Source: Mobula hypostoma
Taxonomy: Eukaryota
DNA: 64,000 bases
Assembly: GCF_963921235.1 (NCBI RefSeq)
Contig: NC_086097.1
Coordinates: 29,886,001-29,950,000, forward strand
Direction: 5' to 3'
Shown: positions 33,778-56,266 of the stretch, piece after piece
Layout: each line of letters opens with the position of its first letter
How positions within the stretch are numbered: position 1 is the first letter of the stretch
The notes under the pieces: generated by a model
Databases searched by the model: none
Told to the model about the DNA's origin: nothing
The model's input: the letters and a program-made list of their open reading frames with translations, nothing else
Made by a program: the position numbers and the translations under genes

Positions 33778-34002
33778 AACACACATCAAAGTTGCTGGTG
33801 AACGCAGCAGGCCAGGCAGCATCTATAGGAAGAGGCGCAGTCGACGTTTCAGGCCGAGACCCTTCGTCAGGACTCCTGACGAAGGGTCTCGGCCTGAAAC
33901 GTCGACTGCGCCTCTTCCTATAGATGCTGCCTGGCCTGCTGCGTTCACCAGCAACTTTGATGTGTGTTGCTTGAATTTCCAGCATCAGCAGAATTCCTGT
34001 TG
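33778..34002. mobile_element. Penelope-like terminal-repeat insertion forming a perfect 191 bp palindrome (33778-33968)
   Basis: 95 bp arms with zero mismatches around a 1 nt centre at 33873; 14 bp direct repeat TAAGGTGAGAGGGG at 33764-33777 and 34003-34016. Confidence 0.8.
33839..33874 (-). ncRNA. Minimal type I hammerhead ribozyme motif (mirror copy with weaker stem I on the + strand, ~33872-33907)
   Basis: Minus strand reads AGUC-CUGACGA-AGG(GUCUCGG)CCU-GAAA-C-GUC-GACU: catalytic core, stem I AGUC/GACU, stem II AGG/CCU, loopless palindromic stem III (ACGU). Confidence 0.7.
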
Positions 34003-36359
34003 TAAGGTGAGAGGGGGAAGGTTTAGAACATGAACCATTACAGCACAGTTCAGGTCCTCAATCTTGCGCCAACCTTTTAACCTACTCCAAGGTCAAATTA
34101 CCCCTTCCCTCCCACCTAGCCCTTTATTTTTCTCTCATCCATGTACCAATCTAAGAGTTTCTTCAATTTCCCTCATGTATCTGCCCCTACCACCACCTCT
34201 GGCAGGATATCCCATGTACCCACCACTCTGTGTGTAAAAAGCATACCTCTGACATCTCCCATGTACTCCAATCACTTTAACATATACCCCCTGATATTAG
34301 CCATTTCTGCCCTGGAAAAAGGTCTCTGGCTATTGATATTGATATCGGCCTATGCCTCTTAGCATCTTGTGCACCTTTGCAAAGTTGCCTCTTATCATCC
34401 TCCAGTCGAGAGGGAAAAGCCCCAGCTTGCTGGAGCTGGTTTAAAGGAGATGTGTGGAGCAAGTTCTTTACAGAGAATAGTGGGTACCTGTCAGGGTTGG
34501 TAGCGTTCTTTTAGAAAGAGAAAACTCAATAAAGAGTCCTGATTGAATCTTTATCGATACACCACTAAAAGCAATGTCAGCATGTATTGTGGCTTTGTAT
34601 GACAGCTGCTCTGCATGTGACCGTGAGAAGCTGCAGAGGATTGAGGACAGAGCTCAGAACATCACAGGAACCAGCCTCCCCTCCGTGGGACTCTGTCTAT
34701 ACTGCTCACTGCCTCAGTAAGACCCCACCCATCCCGGGCATTCTCTCCCCTCCCTCCCATCAGGCAGAAGATACAACAGCATGAAAGCATGTATCACAAG
34801 GCTCGGGGCAGCTTCTATCCTGAGTTATGTGCAATGAAAGGATAAAATGGGCTCATGGCTTTACAATCTGCTTCATTATGATCTTGCACTTTCGTTTACC
34901 TGCACTACATTTTTTTGGTAGCTTTCACACTTCATTTTATTTGTCTTTTTTTAATTTAGAGATACAGCGCAATATCAGGCCTTTCTGGCCCAATGAGCCC
35001 ATGCTGCCCAGTTACGCCCATGCTGCCCAGTTACGCCCGTGCTGCCCAATGATGCCCGTGCTGCCCAATGACACCCATGTGACCAATTACAGACAATGGA
35101 ATTTTTGGAATATGAGAGGAAAGCAGAGCACCCAGACATACAAACTCCTTACAGACAGTAGCGGGAATTGAACCGGGGTCACTGGTGCTGTAATAGCATT
35201 ACACTAACGATTTTGCTACCGTCAGCTGTCTGGTTATGAATTTGCCTTGTGCGACCTCAATGCACTGTGTAAATACCAGATCTGTATGCACAATAGGCAA
35301 GGCAAGCCTTCCACGGTATCTGGGTACTTGCGACAATAATAAGCCAATGCTAGTACCTATGTGGATTATGTGCAGGAAAAGGGGGTTTACTTTAATTTGG
35401 CATTATGGTCGGCACAGATATTATGGGCCAAAGGGCCTGTTCCTGTGTTGCACTGTTCTATGATTATCAGATTGGCAGGATATAACCAGCAAGATCACCA
35501 TTATGCCATTCAGAGTCTGTTGTTAGCCCACACCTGGAATATCATGAGCAGTTATGGTCGTCATATTAAAGGATAAACAGATTGTATAGAGATTAGCTTT
35601 ATTGATCACATGTACTTTGAAACATAGTATTGTTTTACATCAAATCAAATCGGTGCATATGTGCTGGGGGCAGCCTGCAAGTGTTGCCATACTTCCGGTA
35701 CCAATATGGCATGCCCACAACTTACTGACCCTAACTGTGCATCTTTGGAACGTGTAAGGCATGTAACATTAGACAAATTGAATTTAAAATTAATCTTTTT
35801 ATTTAGATACATGGACGATAGGGGTATGGAAGGCTATTGTCCCAGTGCAGGTTGATGGGAGCAGGCAGGTTAAATGATTTGGCATGGACTAGATGGGCTG
35901 AAGGGCCTGTTTCCATCCTGTATTTTTTCTATGACTCTATGACTCAGTCATGGGGAGAACGTATAAACTCCTTATAAACAGTGCTGTAAAGCATCACGGT
36001 AGGCACTAAGCTGCTGTGCCCAAGGAATGATGTGATTAAACTAGGAAACTGTGTAGAAAACATTCACTAGGATGTTGCCAGGACTGGAGGCCTGAGATAT
36101 AAGGAGAGACTCTGGAAAGAGTTTTCCCTGGAGCCGAGGGGGTGTCCTTAAAGAAATAAAGTCATGAAGGGTATAGATAGGCAAGATAATCACAGTCTTT
36201 TCCCCAGGGTAAAACTAGATGGCACAAGTTTAAGGTGGGTCAAAGTCAATGTCAAGTTTATTTGTACACAGGTGCAATGAAAACTTACTTGCAACAGCAT
36301 CACTGGCACAAAGCAGCAGATAAGCAGCATTCACAAGAAAAACACAAACATGAATTATG

Positions 36360-41989: not shown

Positions 41990-43550
41990 TCAACATTAGC
42001 TACATGGTCTTGGTCTGTAGTCACATATAATACCAGGCCAGGTAAGGATGCATCTCTGAAGGATGTGAGTGAACTAAGTGGGTTTCAGCTACTATTGTCA
42101 TCATCATTACTAATAACTACATACACTACATACAGTGCCTATAAAAATTATTCACCGACGCGCCCCCCCCCGGACATTTTCATGTTTTATTGTTTTGCAA
42201 CATTGAATCACAGTGGATTTAATTTGGCTTTTTTTGACACTGTTCAACAGGAAAAGACACTCATGTCAAAGTGAAAACAGATCTCTACAAAGTGATCTAA
42301 ATTAATTACAGTTGTAAAATACAAAATAATTGATTGCGTAAGTATATACTCCCTTCAAGTCTGTATTTAATAGATGCACCTTTGGTAGCAATTACAGCCT
42401 TGTCTGTGTGGATCGGTCTCTTGTCAGCTTTGCACATCTGGACACTGCAATTTTTCCCCCATTCTTCTGTACAAAACTGCTCAGCCTCTGTCAGATTGTA
42501 TGAACAAACCTTTTCAAGTCCAGCCACAAATTCTCAATTAGATTTTGGTCTGGACTCTGACTTGGCCACTCCAGGACAATAACTGTTGTTTTAAGCCATT
42601 CCTGTGTAGCTTTGGCTTTATGCTTGGGGTCACTGTCTTTCTGAAAAATAGATCTTCTCCCAGGTCACAATTCTTTTGCAGACTGCATCAGGTTTTCCTC
42701 CAGGATTTCCCTGTATTTTGCTGCATTTATGCTACTCTAGCTGAGATTTCATGCAAGTCTTTTTCAACAGTGGGTTTCTCATTGCCACCCTCCACATAAA
42801 GCTGCGATTGGTGAAGCACCTGAGCAACAGTTGTTGTATGTGCAGTCTCTCCCATCTCAGCCACTGAAGCTTGTAACTGCTCCAGAGTTGTCATAGGTCT
42901 CCTGGTGGCCTCCCTCACTAGTCCCCTTCTTGCACAGTCACTCAGTTTTTGAGGACGGCCTGCTCTAGGCAGATTTACAGCTGTGCCATATTCTCTCCAT
43001 TTCTCAATAACTATACTCCAGGGGATATTCAGTGACTTGGAAATTTTCTTGGCTGCATTTCCTGACATGCTTTTTAATAACCTTTTTGCGGAGTTGTTTG
43101 GAGTGTTCTTTTATCTTGATGGTGTAATTTTTGCCAGGATACTGACTCACTGGCAGTTGGACCTTCCAGACACAGGTGTATTTCTACTGCAGTCAATTGT
43201 AACACCTTGACTGCACACAGATCTCCATTTAACTAATTATGTGACTTCTAAAACCAAGTGTCATATTAAAGGGGGTGAATATTTATGCAATCAATTATTT
43301 TGTGTGTTATATTTGTAATTAATTTAGATCACTTTGTGGAGATCTGTTTTCACTTTGACATGAGTCTTTTTCTGTTCATCGTGTCAAAAAGACAAATTAA
43401 ATCCACTGTGAATCAATGTAGTAAAACAATAAAACATGAAAACTTCCGGGGGGGGGGAGTGAATACTTTCTATAGGCACTGCAAATAATTGAATTTAAAT
43501 TCCACTGTGAGCATGGTGGTGTTTCAACTCACAACCTGGAACACCAGTCC
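41990..43550 (-). mobile_element. Deu-domain (SacSINE1-like) SINE split by the Tc1 element
   Basis: - strand has tRNA-like head then aaacccacttagttcact...ccttacctggcctgg...tgtgactacagacc, resembling the DeuSINE central domain from memory. Confidence 0.5.
42133..43481 (-). mobile_element. Tc1-family DNA transposon with long (~220 bp) TIRs, decayed transposase
   Basis: TA|cagtgcctata...tataggcactg|ca ends; KKISKSLNIPWS...NLPRAGRPQKLS...LVREATRRPMTTLEQLQAS paired-like HTH. Confidence 0.9.
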
Positions 43551-45708: not shown

Positions 45709-45804
45709 GTAAGTGTCACCCTGATAACTCCGTTCACCACAACTCCCTTCTTCCTGCTTCTCCACACCCTCATGATTAAACTGCCTCTGTAAACTCCCTC
45801 TACT

Positions 45805-46155
45805 CCATCCCAGCACACACTCCCAGGGTTAGATAGAGTTCAACACACTCTACGTTGTCCCATCACACACTCTCGGGGTCAGATATAGTAAATCTCATTC
45901 TACACTGCCCCATCACACACTCCCAGGTAAAGTAAAGCTCACTCGACAATGTCCCATCAAACACTCCCAGAGTTAGATAGAGTTAAACACATTCTATGCT
46001 GTCCCATCACATTCTCCCAAGGCTAGGTAAAGTAAAACTCACTCTACACTGTCCCATCACACAGTCCCAGGGTTAGGTAAAGTAGAACTTGCTCTTCATT
46101 GTCCCATCACACACTCCTAGGGTTAGATAGAGTTAAGTTCACTCTACACTGTCCT
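45805..46155. repeat. ~49 bp minisatellite, about 7 copies
   Basis: Unit ~cccatcacacactcccagggttagatagagttaaactcactctacactgt. Confidence 0.85.
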
Positions 46156-46189
46156 ACCATGCACTCCTACCAGCCCAGTGAATTATGGG

Positions 46190-46730
46190 ATCCAACAAGA
46201 GAAAATCCAGCTATCACCCCCTGACATTCTAAGCCATAACCATCACTGAATCCCACACTGTCAGTATTATGGGGTTACCACTGACAGAAGCTGAACTGAA
46301 GTAGTTTCATAGGCAGTGACACCATGCAGGAAATAGCAGCCCACTTGACAGGACTCCATCCACAACCATTCACTCACTCCACCACCACGACACAGTTTGT
46401 ACCATCTTCAGGACTCACCTCAGTAACTCACCGGGACTCCTCAGACAGCACCTTCCAAACCCACCAACCCTACCACCTAGAGGGACAGGAGCAGCATTAG
46501 CACGGGTACCCCATTCCCTGGAAGTCACCCACCAAGCCACATACCACCCTGACTTGGAAATACATCGCCATCCCTTTCCCACTGGGTTAAACTATCTCCA
46601 GAACAATATAGTGGGTTTACCCACACCTCAGGGACACTGGTGGCTCAAAGAGGCAACTCGCCACCACCTTCTCAAGGGCAGCTGGAGATGGGTAATTAAG
46701 GCCTGGCTCAGCATGTTAAGCCCACGTCCT
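46190..46730 (+). mobile_element. Ancient non-LTR retroelement 3' end
   Basis: caccttccaaaccc...ctgacttggaaatacatcgcc...caccaccttctcaagggca resembles an old CR1/L2-like 3' end from memory. Confidence 0.45.
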
Positions 46731-46826
46731 GTTACACATGAAAAAGTTTGTCTGATATCTTTTGGAGATCCATACGTGCCGAATTCATCATAAAGCCTTC
46801 AGTAATGCATCAAAGTAAAGTTTGTC

Positions 46827-49800
46827 GAACACGCATAAAGTCCTGTATTATTCCAGGATGTGGTGGTTCTACAACATATAGGATACCATTAACCCACAGA
46901 GGTAGACACTGTTGCCGAGCCTAGACCACCCAGTTGACTTCAAGATTAGCAGGTTAACTCCATCATCCGGTGTTGATGTGAGTGAGGGGTCATGGTTAGT
47001 TTTTACAATGGGGGAGCTCAGTCCAGCCCCCATCTCAGCAGTTAAGGACCCTGAGGTCCGGTTCCAAAACCTCACCTCTTGATGCTCCCTGTCCAGTTGT
47101 GGGAAAGCATCCTGATTGCTCCCCATAATATCCCAACATCACCCCTAGAGAATTCCTGCCCTCCACTGTCCAATAACTATCCACAGGCATCACTGGTTGT
47201 TCCTTTTATGGAGTCAGGGTTGTCCCAGAAACCCCGGGACACAGCCACTAGTCCTGCACTGGGGCAGGTAATGGAGGGGTGGGGTATATTCTTTACCTGT
47301 GAACTCTATGCCTACATCAGGGCAATATGTCACAGGCCCCACAGACCTCCTGTGACCTCTGCAAGCTACCCCAGCCCTGCAGCCCAGACTGAGAATCATG
47401 ACCTGAAACCTTGTGAAGATTAAAAATTAGTTTTATTTTTTCACATGTACATTGAAGCACACTGTGAAATGCATTTTTCGCATCAAATCAAATCAGCAAA
47501 GATGTGGTGGGGCAGTCCGCGCTTCCGGTACCAGCATAACGTGCCCACAACTCACGAACCCTATCCATACATCTTTAGAATATGGGGGGGAAAATCGGAG
47601 CACCCAGACAAAATCCACGTGGTCACAGAGAGAACATAGAAACTCCTTACAGAGAGTGGCTGGAATCAAACCCTGCTCTTACAACTGGTGCTGTGAAGTT
47701 TCACACCAATTGCTACATATGCAGCAAACTTCCAGGGCTGAGGTTTGAGGAAGAATCAGATGGATAGAACATAGAATAGAACAGGATGGTACAGGCACTT
47801 CAGATCACAATATTATGCTGAACTTTTAACCCTTCCCTCCTACATAGCCCTCCATATTTCTACCATCCTAGGGAAAAGTATCTGGCTGTCCACTCTATGC
47901 TTCTTATCATCTTGTACACCTCTGTCAAGCCTCTCTCTGCCTTGACTCCAAAGAGGAAAGTCCTAGTTTGCTCAGCCTATCCTCATAAGATATGCCTGTA
48001 AAGAAACAGCATGTTGGTAAGCCTCCTCTGCACCTTCTCTAAAGCTTCCACATCCTTCCTATAATGAGGCAACCAGAAGTTAACACAAGCGTGGTCTAAC
48101 CATGAGGCTGGGGAGCTGCAGCAATACTTCACCACATTTGAATTTAATCCCCCAACTAATGAAGGCCGATATGCCATATGCTTTCTTAACAACTCTATCA
48201 ACTTGCATGGACCCCAACTTTAATGGGCTCGATATAGGGAAGTTTGCCCAGACGGAGGAGTCCAGGATTTAAGGGGCAAAATCTCAAGATAAGGCTGGGA
48301 GCAACTTCTTCACTAAGGGACTTCTTCACTGGTGGGACAGCAGATATAAACCCAAAACTTCAAACCCAAGAATGAATAAAGGAACGGGTTTGTTTAGTCA
48401 CAGTGGACCTGACCAGAAACAAAGTCCCAGATACAGCTTGTGGCCATGGGCTTAGAAGTCACAGAGTCGTATAGCACGGAAGCAGCCCTTCAGCCCAGTG
48501 TGCTGTCCCTTGAGCTGGTCCCATATCCCTCTAAACCCCTCCTATCCATGTGCTTACCCAGGTGGCTTCTAAATGTTGTTGATGTGCCCGCCATGACATA
48601 GGTGGCACGGTAGCATAGCAGCTAGCGATATGCTTTACAGTGCCAGTGACCCTGGTTCAATTCCCAGTGCTGTCTGTAAGGAGTTTGTACATTCTCCCAG
48701 TGACCACATGGGCTTCCTTGGCGTGCTCCGTTTCCTTCCCATAATCCAAAGATGTACGACTTAGTAACTGTGGGCATGCTGTGTTGGTGCTGGAAGCATG
48801 GCTACATTTCCAGTTTACCCGGAATGTTTTGGCTGCTGACACAAAACAATGCATTTCACCTTATGTTTCAAAATACATGTGACAAATCAAGCTAACCATT
48901 ATCTTTACTTCTGGCTGCTTATTCCCAATACGCACCACCATTTGAGTTAAGAAGTTGCTCCTGATGTGCCCTTTAAATCTCTGGCCTCTGACATTAAACC
49001 TAGGCCCTCTTGTTTTAGGCACCCTCCCCCAAGGAAAAATAATATGTGCTTTCACAGCTTCTATACCCCTTGTGATCTTGTATATAAGACAAGACCATAA
49101 GACAAAGGAGCAGAAGTCAGCCATTCGGCCCATCGAGTCTGCACTGCCATTTTATCATGAGCTGATCCATTCTCCCATTTAGTCCTACTCCCCCGCCTTC
49201 TCACCACAACCTTTGATGCCCTGGCTACTCAGATACCTATCAATCTCTGCCTTAAATACACCCAGTGACTTGGCCTCCACTGCTGCCCGTGGCAACAAAT
49301 TCCATAGATTCACCATCCTCTGGCTAAAAAAAATTCTTCGCATTTCAGTTCTGAATGGGCGCCCTTCAATCCTTAAGTCATGCCCTCTCGTACTAGACTC
49401 CCCCATCATGGGAAGCAACTTTGCCACATCCACTCTGTCTGTGCCTTTCAACATTTGAAATGTTTCTATGAGGTCTCCCTTCATTCTTCTAAACTCCAAG
49501 AAATACAGTCCAAAAGCGGACAAACGTTCCTCATATGTTAACCCTCTCATTCCCAGAATCGTTCTAGTGAATCTTCTCTGTACCCTCTCCAATGTCAGCA
49601 CATCCTTTCTTAAATAAGGAGACCAAAACTGCCCACAGTACTCCAAGTGAGGTCTCATCAGCGCCTTATAGAGCCTCAACATCACATCCCTGCTCCTATA
49701 CTCTATTCCTCTAGAAATGAATGCCAACATTGCATTCGCCTTCTTCACCACCGATTCAACCTGGAGGTTAACCTTAAGGGTATCCTGTACGAGGACTCCC

Positions 49801-51285
49801 AAGTCCCGTTGCATCTCAGAACTTTGAATTCTTTCCCCATTTAAGTAATAGTCTGCCCGTTTATTTCTTCCACCAAAGTGCATAACCATACACTTTCCAA
49901 CATTGTATTTCATTTGCCACTTCTTTGCCCATTATTCCAATCTATCCAAGTCTCTCTGCAGACTCTCCGTTTCCTCAGCACTACCAGCATGTTGCAGCTA
50001 TCTAGCCTCCTGATTAGACCACGCTTGTGTTCACTTCTGATCGCCTCATTATAGGAAGGATGTGGAAGTTTTAGAGAAGGTGCAGTGGAGGCTTACCAAT
50101 ACGCTGTTTCTTTACAGGCACATCTTATGAGGATAGGTTGAGCAAGCTAGGACTTTTCTCTTTGTAGTCAAGGCGGAGAGAGGCTTGACAGAGGTGTACA
50201 AGATGATAAGAAGCATAGAGTGGACAGCCAGATACTTCTCCCCAGGATGATAGAAATATGGAGGGCTATGTAGGAGGGAAGGGTTAAAAGTTCAGCATAA
50301 TATTGTGATCTGAAGTGCCTGTACCGTCCTGTTCTATTCTATGTTCTATCCATCTGATTCTTCCTCAAACCTCAGCCCTGGAAGTTTGCTGCATATGTAG
50401 CGATTGGTGTGAAACTTCACAGCACCAGTTGTAAGAGCAGGGTTTGATTCCAGCCACTCTCTGTAAGGAGTTTGTATGTTCTCTCTGTGACCACGTGGAT
50501 TTTGTCTGGGTGCTCCGATTTTCCCCCCATATTCTAAAGATGTACGGATAGGGTTCGTGAGTTGTGGGCACGTTATGCTGGTACCAGAAGCGCGGACTGC
50601 CCCACCACATCTTTGCTGATTTGATTTGATGCGAAGAATGCATTTCACAGTGTACTTCAATGTACATGTGAAAAAATAAAACTAATTTTTAATCTTCACA
50701 AGGTTTCAGGTCATGATTCTCAGTCTGGGCTGCAGGGCTGGGGTAGCTTGCAGAGGTCACAGGAGGTCTGTGGGGCCTGTGACATATTGCCCTGATGTAG
50801 GCATAGAGTTCACAGGTAAAGAATATACCCCACCCCTCCATTACCTGCCCCAGTGCAGGACTAGTGGCTGTGTCCCGGGGTTTCTGGGACAACCCTGACT
50901 CCATAAAAGGAACAACCAGTGATGCCTGTGGATAGTTATTGGACAGTGGAGGGCAGGAATTCTCTAGGGGTGATGTTGGGATATTATGGGGAGCAATCAG
51001 GATGCTTTCCCACAACTGGACAGGGAGCATCAAGAGGTGAGGTTTTGGAACCGGACCTCAGGGTCCTTAACTGCTGAGATGGGGGCTGGACTGAGCTCCC
51101 CCATTGTAAAAACTAACCATGACCCCTCACTCACATCAACACCGGATGATGGAGTTAACCTGCTAATCTTGAAGTCAACTGGGTGGTCTAGGCTCGGCAA
51201 CAGTGTCTACCTCTGTGGGTTAATGGTATCCTATATGTTGTAGAACCACCACATCCTGGAATAATACAGGACTTTATGCGTGTTC
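46827..51285. repeat. Long inverted repeat: ~1.3 kb arms at 46827-~48123 and 49989-51285, spacer ~1.87 kb
   Basis: Mirror ORFs with identical translations whose coordinates sum to 98112; arm ends gaacacgcataaagt / actttatgcgtgttc. Confidence 0.97.
49090..49988 (-). mobile_element. CR1 LINE 3' fragment (~900 bp) with open 242 aa ORF2 C-terminus
   Basis: ORF 49185-49913 MKYNVGKCMVMHFG...RPHLEYC...; tail tcttatggtcttgtctt at ~49086-49102. Confidence 0.95.
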
Positions 51286-51704
51286 AGATCAGCCCTCAAT
51301 CTCCTACATTCCAAGTAAAGAAGGTTCTAGTCTTCACAACCTCTCCTGTAACACAGGCTCTCAAGTTGTGGTAGCCTCCTGGTAAATTTCTTCTGCACCC
51401 TGCTTAGTTTAATGAGCAAAACTCACAACAAGCTGGAGGAATTTGCCAAGTCAACAGTGACTATGGAGGGATAAAGGTTCAAAGGTTCATTTATTATCAA
51501 AGTATACAACTGGGAAATCCTTCAATTATCCGCATAGCCGTGAAACCAAGACAGAAAAGAAAGGCAGCTTGATCATCAACCCCTAAATCCCACCTCCCTG
51601 CAAAAAAAAAACAAACAAAACAGATCAGGCATGTCAACCCCCAAATCCCCCCTCCTGTACAAAATCAATCAAAATGGATCAAGTACATTGACCCCCAATT
51701 AATA

Positions 51705-52012
51705 GTAATAGGCATCCGTTTGTCTCATGAGACCATGGATTTGCGCCTTGGAAGGTTTCCAGGACGCAGGCCTGGGCAAGGTTGTATGGAAGACCAGCAG
51801 TTGCCCATGCTGCAAGTCTCCCCTCTCCATGCACCGATGTTGTTCAAGGGAAGGGCATTAGGACCCATACAGCTTTGCACCAGTGTCGTCGCAGAGCAAT
51901 GTGTGATTAAGTGCCTTGCTCAAGGACACATACGCTGCCTCAGCCAAGGCTGGAACTAGCGACCTTCAAATCACTAGATGAACGCCTTAACCACTTGGCC
52001 ATGTGCCAACAC
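51705..52012 (-). mobile_element. tRNA-derived SINE (second family); + strand copy at ~59468-59775, 3' remnant at ~12128-12168
   Basis: A box tggccaagtgg, B box gttcgagcc (clear in the 59.5 kb copy), shared tail ccaaggcgcaaatccatggtctca.gagac..acggatgcc. Confidence 0.8.
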
Positions 52013-52350
52013 ATATATCGACCCCCCCAGATATATCTTATCTAATCATCTTATCAGCTTTCCTATAACAGGGCGACCAGATTTATCACATGTACCACAT
52101 GGAAACATACAGAGAAATAACAACCAACACAACCTAACAATGTACGATGGGAAGCCCGCAGGTATCACCACACATTCTGGCATCAACCTAGCATGCTCGC
52201 AATGCTTGGCAGAATAACACAGAACACAACACACACCAAAACATCAACAGCAAAACAAGCCTTTTTCTCCCTCCTACCCACCCACAAACACAGACAGTCC
52301 TCCAGCCCCAGGACGTGTAATCAGGACTCCAGACTTTGACCTCCAGACTT

Positions 52351-52530
52351 ATGCAACACGCTGAAGGAACTCAGCAGGTCGGGCAGCATCAGTGGAAACG
52401 AACAGTCAATGTTTCGGGCCGAGACCCTTCATCCTGACGTTGACTGTTCATTTCCACGGATGCTGCCTGACCTGCTGAGTTCCTCCTGCATGTTGCTTTG
52501 ACCCCAGCATCTGCGGAGTATTTTGTGTTT
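52351..52530. mobile_element. Second Penelope-type foldback insertion, imperfect palindrome
   Basis: 12 bp TSD ACCTCCAGACTT at 52339-52350 and 52531-52542; arms gaactcagcaggtc / gacctgctgagttc; degenerate hammerhead core. Confidence 0.7.
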
Positions 52531-54549
52531 ACCTCCAGACTTCTGATTGACTTTCGGGCTTTGATATTGAGTATTGACCCCCGGACTGGCTGAGGACGGG
52601 ACCTCGAACTCCAGGCTAGAATTTCGGGCCCATCGACTGACCTGTTGTCATGCCTCCTGCTTACTCAGACATCCAATCCCGGAACCCTATGGACTGAGAC
52701 ATATCCAGCAATGACCTACATCACCTGTACACACCACTGGGTTTCAATCACAGAGTGGAAGCCTGGACTCTGAAAGTCCTTTATCCCATGTCCACATTGC
52801 TGGCCTTCAAGTGCATGTAAATTTGTTTATCTCGAAGAGTCATAACACAAGCAGACAACAATAATACAACGGATGTGTGCACTACAGTGTAACAAGATGA
52901 TGGGATCTGAAATCACATTAAGATTCTATTATTATTTGTCAATATTCCCACAAGGTGTGTGGTGCAATTGATAATTAACTTCTGCTGCCTCGGGATGGTT
53001 GCCATGATGGTTTATTTTCTTGCTTGCTGACGCTGATGTTAATCAATTTGGTAAAGTTGATCATGTTCCTAGCCCTGAGAGCACGCTGTAAGGGCAACCC
53101 TCAGACAACTTCTGGTGTCGAGGGCGGCCAGCATCATCTCGAGTGAGAAAGCAGAGCTATTAATGTTAGGCTTGTTGGAGATCGGTCCAGGTTGGGGTAG
53201 AAGGAGAGAGAACACGAAAAAAGAGAGGTCTGCAGTAAAGATTCGGTAGTGTTGACATTCAGAGAGCCCTGGATGTTCTTGTATGTACTGTAGGTCAACG
53301 CCAACAGATATATCTGATCAGGAGAGCAAAGTATATATTAGGCTTAATCATAGAATAATAAACAGGGAAACGGCGCCTTCGGCTTAATGTGTCCATATCG
53401 ACCATCTCCAGCTTCTGGTATCTTCTACCCCTTCCCCCTTCTCTCTTTTTCCATTCTCTGTTCTGGTTCCCCTCCCACCCCTCCTCTTTTTCTCACCTGC
53501 TCGTCACCTCCCTTTGTGGCCCTCCTCCTTCTCTTTCTCCCATGGTTGGCTTTCCTCACCTATCGGATTTCTTCTTCAGCCCTTTATCACCTCCTCCATC
53601 CCATCTTGTCTCAACTATCATCAGCCAGTTTGTACTACTTCCCCTCCACCCTCCGCCCTTCACCTTATTTCGGCCTCTTGCCCCCTTCCTTTCCAGGAAA
53701 AAAAAAGGTTTTGGTCTGAAACATCAACTGTTTATTTCTCTCTGTAGATGCTGCCTGACTTGTTGAGTTCCTCCAGCATTTTGAGTGTTGCTTCATCTGA
53801 ACTAGACCTATCTGCCTGTATTTGGTTCATAACCCTCTAAATCTTTCCTATGCATGTATCTGCCCAGGTATCTTTTAAATGTTGTTAATGTACTTACCTC
53901 AACCACTTCCTCCAGCAGCTTATTTCTCTGCATGAAGAAGTTGCCCCTCGAGTCCTTTTAGAAAGGCCTGGGTGGATGTGGAAATGATGTTTCCAATGGA
54001 GGGAAAATCAAGAATCAGCGGTTACAGTCTTAGAATAGAAGGATGTCCCTTTAAAACAGAGAGGAGGATAAATTTCTTAAGTGAGAGTGATGATTGTGTG
54101 GAATTCATTATTGCAAAGGTCACTGTGGGTGTCAAGTTATTAGGTATATTTACAGTGGAAGTGAGGATGATTAAATGGTGGAACAGACTTTTTGGGCCAA
54201 ATGGCTCAATTCTGCTCCTATGTCTTAAACATCCACTTACTGTTTCAGAAAGCAATCTCAATCACGTCCCTCCTTCACTGTATCGCTTAGCAATTCATTC
54301 TTCTGAAGTTTTCTTCTAATTCCATTTAGGAGGGTTCTGCTGGACTTCAAAGTAAATTTATTGTCAAAGTATACTTATGTTACCACATACAACCCTGAGA
54401 TTCATTTTCTTGCAGCCATACTCAGTAAATCCAGGAAACCCAATGGAATCAATGAAAGGGCAGACAAACAGCTGATGTGCAAAAGACAACAAGCTACAAA
54501 TACAAAAGAAAAAAAATATTATAAATAAATAAGCAATAAGTATCCTAGA

Positions 54550-55858
54550 TGTACGGGGTTTCTTTGTATGTTCAATTTAAAATGGCTTCTACATTATGTT
54601 AAATGCTGAGAAAGTCTCTAGCTAGACATTTGCTTGGGTTAATACAGACAGCAGGGTGCTATTAGCCAATGGGTGTTCATGTATCGTTTTGTTTTCGGAT
54701 GATAATGCTGTCTCATATGACTGGGGACGGGGTTTTTGGGGGGAGTCGGAGGAGAGACGGGGAGGACGGTGGACGGGGTTTTTTGGGGGGAGTTGGAGGA
54801 GAGACGGGGAGAACGGTGGACGGGGTTTTTGGGGGGAGTCGGAGGAGAGACGGGGAGAACGGTGGACGGGGTTTTTGGCGAGGAGTTGGAGGAGAGACGG
54901 GGAGGACGGTGAACGGGGTTTTTGGGGGGAGTCGGAGGAGGGACGGGGAGGACGGTGGACGGGGTTTTTGGCGAGGAGTCGGAGCAGAGACGGGGAGGAC
55001 GGCGGAAGGGGTTTTTGGCGGGGAGTCGGAGGAGAGATGGGGAGGACGGTGGACGGGGTTTTTGGGGGGAGTCAGAGGAGGGACGGGGAGGATGGTGGAC
55101 AGGGTTTTTGGCGGGGAGTCGGAGGAGAGACGGGGAGGACGGTGAATGGGGTTTTTGGTGGGGAGTCAGAGGAGAGACTGGGAGGACGGTGGAGAGACGG
55201 GGAGTCGGAGGAGAGACGGGGAGGACGGTGGACGGGGTTTTTGGGGGGGAGTCAGAGGAGAGATGGGGAGGACGGTGGACGGGGTTTTTGACGGGAAGTC
55301 GGAGGAGAGACGGGGAGGACGGTGGACGGGGTTTTTGGGGGGGAGTCGGAGGAGAGACGGGGAGGACGGTGGACGGGGTTTTTGGGGGGGAGGACGGAGG
55401 AGAGATGGGGAGGATGGTGGAGAGACAGGGAGGACAGTGGACGGGTTTTTGGGGGGAGTCGGTGGAGAGACGGGGAGTTGGAGGAGAGACGGGGAGGACG
55501 GTGGACGTGCGAAAGGCTCTGGTCGATCACTCTGGGTGGTCCCAAGCCATGAGTTGACAGGATCCGGGTGGTCGTCAGGAATCGATTGAGCTCCAACGGT
55601 TGCGCACGAAGAACTTGGACTTTGATAAGTCTTGGCGCCTTTTTTTTCATGACTTCCTTTTCTGTATTTTATTTATATTAATGTCATAGACTTAGTAATA
55701 TCTGTAAAATGTACTGGGTAAAACGTACTGGGTGTGCTGGCTGATGATTGATGTTTGGGATTGATTCGGGCGGCAGCTGACTCAGTGGGAAGCGTTGAGG
55801 CAGGTGCTGGGCGGGATTTCCTCTAGACATATACGAGCCAATGTAGCAGAGCATTACA
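54550..55858. mobile_element. Solo LTR (1309 bp) with expanded internal minisatellite
   Basis: Ends TGTA...TACA; 4 bp TSD TAGA at 54546-54549 and 55859-55862; interrupts a LINE 3' UTR. Confidence 0.85.
54725..55507. repeat. G-rich 46-47 bp minisatellite, about 17 copies
   Basis: Unit ggggtttttggggggagtcggaggagagacggggaggacggtggac. Confidence 0.95.
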
Positions 55859-56266
55859 TAGACATAAGATGAAGAATCCTTGAAAGTGAGTCCACAGGTT
55901 GTGGGAACAGTTCAGTGGTGGGGCAAGTGGAGTTATCCCCTTTGGTTCAACAGCCTGATGGTTGAGGGGTAATAACCGTTCCTGAAACAAAACCTGGTGC
56001 TTTGGTTTCTGAGGCTCCTGTACCTTCTTCCTGGTGGCAGCAGCAAGAAGAGAGCATGGCCTGGATGGTCACGGGGACGGACACGGGCACACACACATCA
56101 ACTCACATGGGCACACACGGACACACGCATGTTTTAGTTTCATGCTTTAATAATTCCAGAGCTTTCACTCTACAGTAAGCACAGGTACTCCCCTCCGAGA
56201 CCACCACACTAGAGTGATGATAATGGCCTCTGGTGTGAGCACTGATCTCTTTGTTCTTTACCGCAG

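What the first reader, a model, noticed from the sequence alone, without database searches (positions are those of the whole stretch)
49087..51288. A CR1 insertion appears to have captured and inverted 1.3 kb of its own neighbourhood
Seen: an older CR1 fragment breaks at ...gatcttgtatataaga (49089) and resumes at agatcagccctcaatctcctacattcc (51286), with AGA on both sides. The 2.2 kb between is therefore one insert. On the - strand it reads as a copy of + strand 46827-~48123 joined directly at 49989/49988 to a 5'-truncated CR1 3' end. The captured piece is in host pre-mRNA sense and its source lies ~1 kb from the insertion site. Known: LINE reverse transcriptases can switch templates during target-primed reverse transcription. 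Inference: CR1 RT jumped from its own RNA to the nascent host intron RNA, or to local DNA during repair, creating a 4.5 kb inverted repeat.
Basis: partly seen in the sequence, partly recalled or inferred. Interest (0 to 1): 0.75.

Follow-up and report, generated by a model that had tools for sequence, protein, structure and literature searches.

The report
CR1 insertion with flipped local copy
A CR1 jumping gene in an intron of a ray gene carries at its front end a flipped 1.3-kb copy of DNA lying 1 kb away, likely copied while the insertion was being sealed and likely re-matched later by gene conversion; this is a known by-product of LINE insertion, here unusually large and repeated at a second locus.

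Summary
Bases 49990-51285 are an inverted copy of 46827-48123 (1297 bp, 97.7%), joined to the 5' end of an 898-bp truncated CR1, all inside an older CR1 fragment. The outer arm has two copies in the genome, and a related species carries the right junction. AGA may be a target duplication, but the rejoined site is 6 nt short, so a small deletion fits too. (1) The arms differ at 0/631, 8/405 and 22/261 sites from outside to inside; the inner drift matches the CR1's age, and outgroup alleles show copy-to-source gene conversion. (2) The layout recurs: of 153 other family copies, one has a clear 215-bp inverted capture from the same tail side, with 30 nt of homology at the switch, and one has a weak 31-bp case; none is in direct orientation. 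This leans towards cDNA fold-back on DNA (0.55) over a jump to pre-mRNA (0.3); this locus cannot separate them. Both routes are in print for human L1 and R2. The scan's earlier notes hold related LINE chimeras, not this layout.

The parts
46827..48123 (+). Source arm: intronic DNA that was copied (unique part, a SINE-like repeat at about 47430-47680, and the first 260 bp of an old CR1 fragment)
46827..47457 (+). Outer 631 bp of the source arm, identical to the copy; carries the copy's derived allele at 46879, so likely overwritten by gene conversion
47863..48123 (+). Inner 261 bp of the source arm, 22 differences from the copy (11 source-derived, 9 copy-derived, 2 unresolved): records the real age
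48124..49089 (+). 966 bp between the template-switch point and the insertion site, not duplicated
48900..49089 (-). Left half of the older CR1 fragment that was the target; ATAAGA at 49084-49089 also matches the incoming tail
49090..49988 (-). 5'-truncated young CR1: 3' end of ORF2 (open 248 aa at 49185-49931), 3' UTR and TCTTATGG-type tail; 29 differences from the family majority in 898 sites
49989..49990 (.). Inner junction: no microhomology at the break, one extra or mutated base; a 6-nt match (AGATAG) lies 8-9 nt off the break
49990..51285 (-). Captured inverted copy of 46827-48123
51286..51430 (-). Right half of the older CR1 target fragment, starting with AGA
45709..56266 (+). Host intron (GT at 45709, AG ending 56266) of an uncharacterised ~1140-1270 aa protein gene conserved in rays; holds both arms and no exon between them

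Best explanation
The 2.2-kb insert is a truncated CR1 joined to an inverted copy of nearby DNA, likely made in one insertion event in which the new CR1 cDNA end folded back on the DNA strand it was primed from. Steps: (1) shown by sequence: the CR1 tail meets the target at 49084-49089 and cDNA ran rightwards on the + strand to 49988. (2) Inferred: the cDNA 3' end left the CR1 RNA and was extended on the same + strand about 1 kb behind the nick, made single-stranded by resection of the - strand or displaced by transcription, copying 48123 back to 46827. (3) Inferred: the extended end was released and joined to the right target end with a 3-nt duplication or a deletion of a few bases. (4) Shown by polarised alleles: both arms then drifted about 3-4% each, and the outer 1 kb was homogenised by arm-to-arm gene conversion, most recently copy to source. 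No host function is proposed; it is a neutral repair scar.
For: Single event: the flanks rejoin into one old CR1; copy-derived changes in the inner arm (9/261, 3.4%) match the CR1's distance from its family (29/898, 3.2%; 9 synonymous, 14 non-synonymous); the same layout recurs at L201, whose 215-bp piece is two-copy in the genome. DNA fold-back: both independent captures among 153 copies (L201, L321) are inverted and on the tail (primer) side, none direct; 457 flank-swapped controls gave no inverted hit; at L201 the switch sits in 30 nt shared between the CR1 and an older, oppositely oriented CR1 piece on the primer strand. Published L1 cases show primer-side fold-back after 6.3 kb of resection with 0-bp microhomology and local genomic pieces of 137-793 bp in insertions (PMC11702581). 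Conversion: 0 differences in 631 bp where about 40 are expected at the CR1's age, or 8 even at the A-B distance; both arms share derived alleles at 50745, 50804, 50806, 50864 and 50929, where B and outgroup D are ancestral; at 51233/46879 outgroups C, D and B's source are ancestral while B's copy and both arms here are derived.
Against: No microhomology at the focal switch point; the 6-nt match nearby is weak (5 of 153 other junctions and 1.4% of random source places reach it). 1.3 kb is far longer than the usual templated pieces (<250 bp within 15 bp of the site, 10.1101/2024.08.27.596794; 52-220 bp, PMC10191854). A fold-back of this size must be unwound again to avoid a chromosome-scale fold-back, which an RNA template would not need (inference). 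The family tally is tiny (one clear and one weak case), the loci held only about 1.1-1.5 kb of flank, and direct-orientation captures were harder to see. The empty site was not read directly in any outgroup.
Confidence: 0.55

Rival explanations
1. Same single event, but the CR1 reverse transcriptase jumped from its own RNA to the nascent host intron RNA and copied 1.3 kb of it.
For: The piece is in pre-mRNA sense inside a + strand intron, upstream of the site in the direction of transcription. No microhomology plus one extra base fits end-to-end template jumping by LINE-type enzymes (own knowledge). The length is easy for a reverse transcriptase and the source stays intact. One somatic L1 case of co-inserted nearby precursor mRNA is reported (PMC10191854). 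An unchecked scan note describes an mRNA-LINE chimera in this genome (e1-7790876).
Against: Orientation does not discriminate. No direct-orientation capture among 153 copies, though about half would be expected (low power). L201 shows a homology-guided switch. No RNA hallmark: no splice, no A tail, and 3 of 9 copy-derived changes are A>G with no cluster. Germline expression of the host gene was not tested.
Confidence: 0.3
2. Two separate events: an inverted duplication by replication template switching or break repair, and a CR1 insertion whose 5' end happens to meet it.
For: Local duplications exist in this region (16 low-copy pairs in 1.06 Mb). The target signature is ambiguous.
Against: The junction is within 1 nt of the CR1 5' end; ages match; the layout recurs at L201; only 3 of the 16 pairs are inverted and only this one touches an annotated CR1 end.
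Confidence: 0.1
3. Assembly artefact or a dispersed chimeric repeat.
For: The perfect 631-bp identity could come from polishing; no listed contig crossed the inner junction.
Against: Two-copy arm; three runs of organism B bridge the right junction; the inner copy keeps ancestral alleles seen in outgroup D at 48103, 48110, 48112, 48121, which an assembler cannot invent.
Confidence: 0.03

Closest known systems
L1 templated insertions (Zumalave et al. preprint 10.1101/2024.08.27.596794, passages seen; Mendez-Dorantes et al. PMC11702581, passages and supplement Figs S9-S10 legends seen)
   Same: Non-element genomic sequence from near the site copied into the insertion, duplicating it; primer-side fold-back of the cDNA end after kilobase resection with 0-bp microhomology (Fig. 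6B case).
   Different: Those are somatic or cell-culture human L1 events, typically <250 bp within 15 bp of the site; the Fig. 6B case ends as a chromosomal fold-back. Here: CR1, germline, shared by two species, 1.3 kb, 966 bp away, resolved back to the target site.
L1 'foldback inversion' and pre-mRNA co-insertion (Nam et al. 2023, PMC10191854 and its preprint; passages seen)
   Same: Inverted duplication of local DNA at the 5' head of the insertion; one case of nearby precursor mRNA co-inserted by strand switching.
   Different: Their foldbacks are 52-220 bp and come from the 5'-upstream side of the target; here the source is on the tail side and 6-25 times longer.
Snap-back 5' junctions of R2-protein insertions (PMC11371274, passages seen) and 5' extra nucleotides of zebrafish L2-clade LINEs (PMC4245944 passages; PMC4760211 parts 1-2 of 4)
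   Same: The cDNA 3' end primes extra DNA synthesis on itself or on flanking DNA before the 5' junction is sealed; shown in LINE clades other than L1.
   Different: Short pieces, engineered or cultured-cell insertions; no CR1 data in what I read.
Arm-to-arm gene conversion in inverted repeats (Y and X palindromes, PMC3723533, PMC8600007: search listing only; C. elegans inverted repeats, PMC1803023: abstract)
   Same: Inverted arms more alike than their age allows, sharing lineage-specific alleles.
   Different: Here the arms are only 1.3 kb with a 1.9-kb spacer, non-coding, born from a retrotransposition accident, and the inner quarter has escaped conversion.

Membership tests
5'-truncated CR1-type LINE inserted by target-primed reverse transcription | 3' part of an RT-encoding ORF2 shared with a dispersed family | tested here: met
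   40 scored copies at 95-96%; longer copy L004 has RT-type frames upstream; a related element in the window hits Pfam RVT_1. The focal 248-aa piece lies behind the RT core and has no Pfam hit at cut-off.
5'-truncated CR1-type LINE inserted by target-primed reverse transcription | Tandem-repeat 3' tail that overlaps the target | tested here: met
   TCTTATGG unit in the family; 6-nt overlap ATAAGA at 49084-49089.
5'-truncated CR1-type LINE inserted by target-primed reverse transcription | Short target-site duplication | tested here: inconclusive
   AGA on both sides, but the rejoined site is 6 nt short in 47 of 69 hits; 134 of 154 family copies show only 0-4 nt duplications.
5'-truncated CR1-type LINE inserted by target-primed reverse transcription | Placement in the CR1 clade by an RT tree | not tested
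LINE templated 5'-junction insertion / snap-back | Non-element sequence at the 5' junction copied from nearby DNA, source left in place | tested here: met
LINE templated 5'-junction insertion / snap-back | Same event as the LINE insertion | tested here: met
   One target site, matching ages, recurrence at L201; an intermediate state in relatives was not seen but not excluded.
LINE templated 5'-junction insertion / snap-back | Microhomology at the switch (common, not obligatory) | tested here: inconclusive
   0 nt at the focal break, weak 6-nt match nearby; 30 nt at L201.
LINE templated 5'-junction insertion / snap-back | Template was DNA | not testable with these tools
   DNA + strand and sense RNA give the same product at this locus.
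L1 foldback inversion of Nam et al. (process C) | Source on the 5'-upstream side of the target, 52-220 bp | tested here: not met
   Source is on the tail side, 1297 bp.
Reverse-transcriptase jump to nearby pre-mRNA | Piece in sense orientation of a transcript covering the site | tested here: met
Reverse-transcriptase jump to nearby pre-mRNA | RNA hallmarks (splicing, A tail, editing clusters) or strand tracking across loci | tested here: inconclusive
   None in the copy; 0 direct captures in 153 copies, low power.
Twin-priming 5' inversion | Inverted part derives from the element's own RNA | tested here: not met
   The inverted part is host intron DNA.
5' transduction or chimeric retroelement family | The 5' piece comes from a distant source element or recurs with the LINE at other loci | tested here: not met
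   Two copies only, both local.
Arm-to-arm gene conversion | Derived alleles shared by both arms that postdate the duplication | tested here: met
   Five shared derived sites and one directional site.

The most novel reading that the evidence does not exclude
CR1 insertion is a steady germline source of local inverted duplications in cartilaginous fish: about 1 in 100 insertions folds its cDNA back on the primer strand, often guided by older CR1 copies nearby, and copies hundreds to more than a thousand bases. The arms then stay nearly identical through gene conversion, seeding long intronic hairpins. With about 6 young copies of this family per Mb, that would mean on the order of 100-250 events for this family alone, enough to settle whether LINE 5'-junction captures use DNA or nascent RNA.
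Probability: 0.35. Interest if true: 0.6.

Novelty: new member of a known kind. Interest (0 to 1): 0.4.

Why it matters
How a LINE seals its 5' end, and whether the extra sequence there is copied from DNA or RNA, is still open. Published cases come mostly from human L1 in tumours and cell lines. This locus and L201 show that the same accident is fixed in the germline by a CR1 element, at kilobase size, so repeat-rich shark and ray genomes could give a large natural sample to test strand and side bias. The locus is also a clean, dated example of gene conversion in a small inverted repeat, and a warning that arm identity cannot date such duplications. Both arms lie in one intron, so the pre-mRNA is predicted to form a 1.3-kb stem (untested).

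Tried and rejected
Scan of 1.064 Mb around the window for low-copy local duplicates: 16 pairs, only the focal one at a CR1 end; too few young copies (6 of this family) to be informative. Family scan candidates dropped: L368 looked like an inverted capture but is a second CR1 family nested inside the element, with 97-98% matches elsewhere; L014 lies in a microsatellite; L275 is an internal duplication of the element; L242 is a 20-bp hairpin at the 5' junction, not counted as a flank capture; L210 gave no hit and 34 duplicate loci were removed before counting. Extending the loci to 10 kb was not possible, so captures from more than about 1.5 kb away and most direct 5'-side captures are untested. 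Error-prone synthesis as the cause of the inner divergence: rejected, changes fall on both arms about equally. A young event with a diverged master element: disfavoured, best genome matches are 96% and changes look neutral, though only 17 of the 29 differences are rare in other copies, so the age may be nearer 2% than 3%. Paralogous CR1 as donor of the inner 260 bp: rejected. Empty allele in outgroups: no joint listed; C and D contigs run from the arm into the source flank, and a C contig stops aligning at 49084, but its remaining letters were not shown. Contig depth over the arm is 1.25-1.6 times that of neighbouring contigs in A and B and flat in C and D; the tool warns that depth is no copy number, so I use it as a hint only. 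No RNA holder was listed. Host protein: weak PDZ hit below cut-off in 1 of 3 proteins, nothing in PDB or the Atlas. Literature: searches found no report of a kilobase templated capture by CR1; the library lacks most subscription papers, and bioRxiv supplements and all figures were not visible, so absence is not shown.
Full report
Observation. The window is repeat-rich ray DNA: the exon ending at 45708 matches a protein annotated in Mobula hypostoma at 100% and two other rays at 88-90%, and that protein maps as 17 segments on the + strand across and beyond the window. The finding lies in one intron, 45709-56266. Self-comparison confirms the inverted repeat, 46827-48123 against 51285-49990, 1297 bp at 97.7%. 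The outer 594 bp occur twice in the genome. The inner 271 bp, although part of an old CR1, match the local source at 92% and the other scored copies at 76-83%. The copy is therefore local and not a dispersed element.

The element and its junctions. Bases 49091-49988 are the 3' end of a young family whose best scored copies are 95-96% alike. Family copies show that the element stops at 49988; 49989 is one extra or mutated base, and the captured piece starts at 49990. There is no microhomology at the break. A 6-nt match lies 8-9 nt away; 5 of 153 other junctions reach that length, so it is a weak hint. The family tail is a TCTTATGG repeat and overlaps the target by ATAAGA. Rejoining the flanks restores one older CR1 fragment: 69 hits span the joint, 47 with 6 nt more than the rejoined site. 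So AGA may be a 3-nt duplication, or the insertion may have removed a few bases. Family copies mostly show 0-4 nt duplications (134 of 154).

Support from reads. Contigs of organism B, about 1.3% from this genome in 7 listed contigs (28 of 2095 letters), bridge the right junction in three runs of one sample. The left junction is crossed by 21 letters in X1 and by 35 reference positions with 13 gap letters in X5, which is short of a firm bridge. No listed contig crossed the inner junction, but the tables were cut. In the more distant organisms C and D a single contig covers the outer arm and runs on into the source's flank; no insert junction was listed, and the empty site was not read. The event is thus older than the A-B split and probably younger than the split from C and D.

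Age and gene conversion. The arms differ at 0 of 631, 8 of 405 and 22 of 261 sites from outside to inside (p = 2e-13). Polarised with 28 old CR1 relatives, the inner differences are 11 source-derived, 9 copy-derived and 2 unresolved, so both arms drifted, 3-4% each. The young CR1 is 29 of 898 sites from its family majority, with a neutral-looking pattern. At that age about 40 differences are expected in the outer 631 bp, and 8 even at the A-B distance. Outgroups explain the gap. At 50745, 50804, 50806, 50864 and 50929 both arms here carry a letter that B (three runs) and D do not; C agrees with them at the two sites it covers. At 51233 (source 46879) C, D and B's source contig are ancestral, while B's copy contig and both arms here are derived. 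The copy's allele moved into the source. These contigs collapse small differences, so B's arm divergence is only roughly known (at least 8 candidate sites in about 600 bp, some perhaps allelic), but the conclusion for this genome holds either way. Why the inner quarter escaped is not shown; early divergence blocking further pairing is my guess.

Recurrence. I collected 267 loci of the family, 232 unique, 154 with both ends in view, including the focal one. Among the other 153, L201 has a 215-bp inverted copy (1 difference) of DNA 631-845 bp beyond its tail, two-copy in the genome. Its switch lies in 30 nt shared with an older, oppositely oriented CR1 piece in the source. L321 has a weaker 31-bp case (90%, 95-125 bp beyond the tail, 7 extra bases). 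Four other hits were dropped for stated reasons, among them L368, a nested insertion. No direct-orientation capture was found. Swapping flanks between loci (457 pairs) gave no inverted hit and two direct hits from one repeat pair. The rate is about 1 in 100, a lower bound because flanks were short.

Mechanism. The cDNA grew rightwards on the + strand and then continued as the complement of the + strand sequence behind it. Three templates give this product: the resected primer strand, the non-template DNA strand displaced by transcription, or the nascent RNA. The locus cannot tell them apart. Fold-back on DNA always gives an inverted, tail-side copy; an RNA template should give direct copies about as often. 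Two of two independent cases are inverted and tail-side, and one is homology-guided, which tips me to DNA at 0.55 against RNA at 0.3. The single-event reading as a whole stands at about 0.85 and later conversion at about 0.9.

What is known. Human L1 insertions carry short foldback inversions from the 5' side (3 cases, 0.3%) and, once, co-inserted nearby pre-mRNA (PMC10191854 and its preprint, passages). Templated insertions were seen 22 times in a long-read tumour set, typically under 250 bp and within 15 bp of the site (10.1101/2024.08.27.596794, passages). Primer-side fold-back after 6271 bp of resection with 0-bp microhomology, and local pieces of 137-793 bp, are in PMC11702581 (passages and supplement part 3). 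Homology of 25 bp or more promotes recombination of L1 cDNA intermediates (PMC13526784, passages), which fits L201. R2-protein insertions show snap-back synthesis on cDNA or nearby DNA (PMC11371274, passages), and zebrafish L2-clade LINEs copy flanking DNA into 5' extra nucleotides (PMC4245944 passages, PMC4760211 parts 1-2). PMC13174262 (passages) catalogues L1-RNA chimeras and does not mention CR1. Eight searches found no kilobase CR1 case, in a library that lacks most subscription papers.

Verdict. A real, well-preserved LINE templated 5'-junction capture: a new member of a known kind. It is notable for its clade, size, germline fixation, a second case with the same geometry and directional gene conversion. 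It has no sign of function. Interest 0.4.

Noticed in passing
L201 = G000:C66:28566141-28569320 (copy 28567865-28568079, source 28566616-28566830): Second CR1 insertion with an inverted 215-bp capture from its tail-side flank and 30 nt of homology at the switch; arms differ at 1 site while the element is 7/404 from its family majority.
   Followed up: yes
L321 = G000:C81:13265979-13269138: 31-bp inverted piece (90%) from 95-125 bp beyond the tail, plus 7 extra bases, at a CR1 5' junction.
   Followed up: partly
L368 + L400, G000:C5:129637494-129644000: Three nested or abutting CR1 copies: a 555-bp copy of a second family sits inside the element, and another copy of that family lies tail to tail with it.
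   Followed up: yes
L275 = G000:C58:36080081-36083240: CR1 copy whose 5' junction is preceded by a 140-bp direct duplicate of its own 3' region (96.6%).
   Followed up: no
G000:C1:30023028-30025365 (L080): Two young copies of another repeat family joined in inverted orientation (974 bp, 95%); its ends match the short repeat at window 33778-34003. Penelope-like by recall only.
   Followed up: partly
window 33778-33968: 191-bp near-perfect palindrome (99.5%) made of two back-to-back copies of a short repeat end.
   Followed up: no
window 42133-43481: Element with 226-bp inverted ends (84.5%) around a transposase-like frame at 42727-43110; Tc1-like by recall.
   Followed up: no
window 45789-46167 and 54719-55507: Two minisatellites (about 50-bp and 46-bp units) in the same intron as the finding.
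   Followed up: no
G000:C1:29403588-29415428: Two adjacent tandem duplications of low-copy DNA, 3.3 kb at 97.9% and 2.6 kb at 99.3%.
   Followed up: no
window 8114-56345 and beyond (P0001-P0003): Host gene is an uncharacterised 1138-1271 aa protein found only in three rays in one search, with a weak PDZ-like segment before a predicted coiled-coil-like exon.
   Followed up: partly
window 49077-49124: Organism B's contig is 13 nt shorter than this genome across 48773-49124; a 13-nt slip between the ATAAGACAA repeats of the tail would explain it, but the letters were not shown.
   Followed up: no
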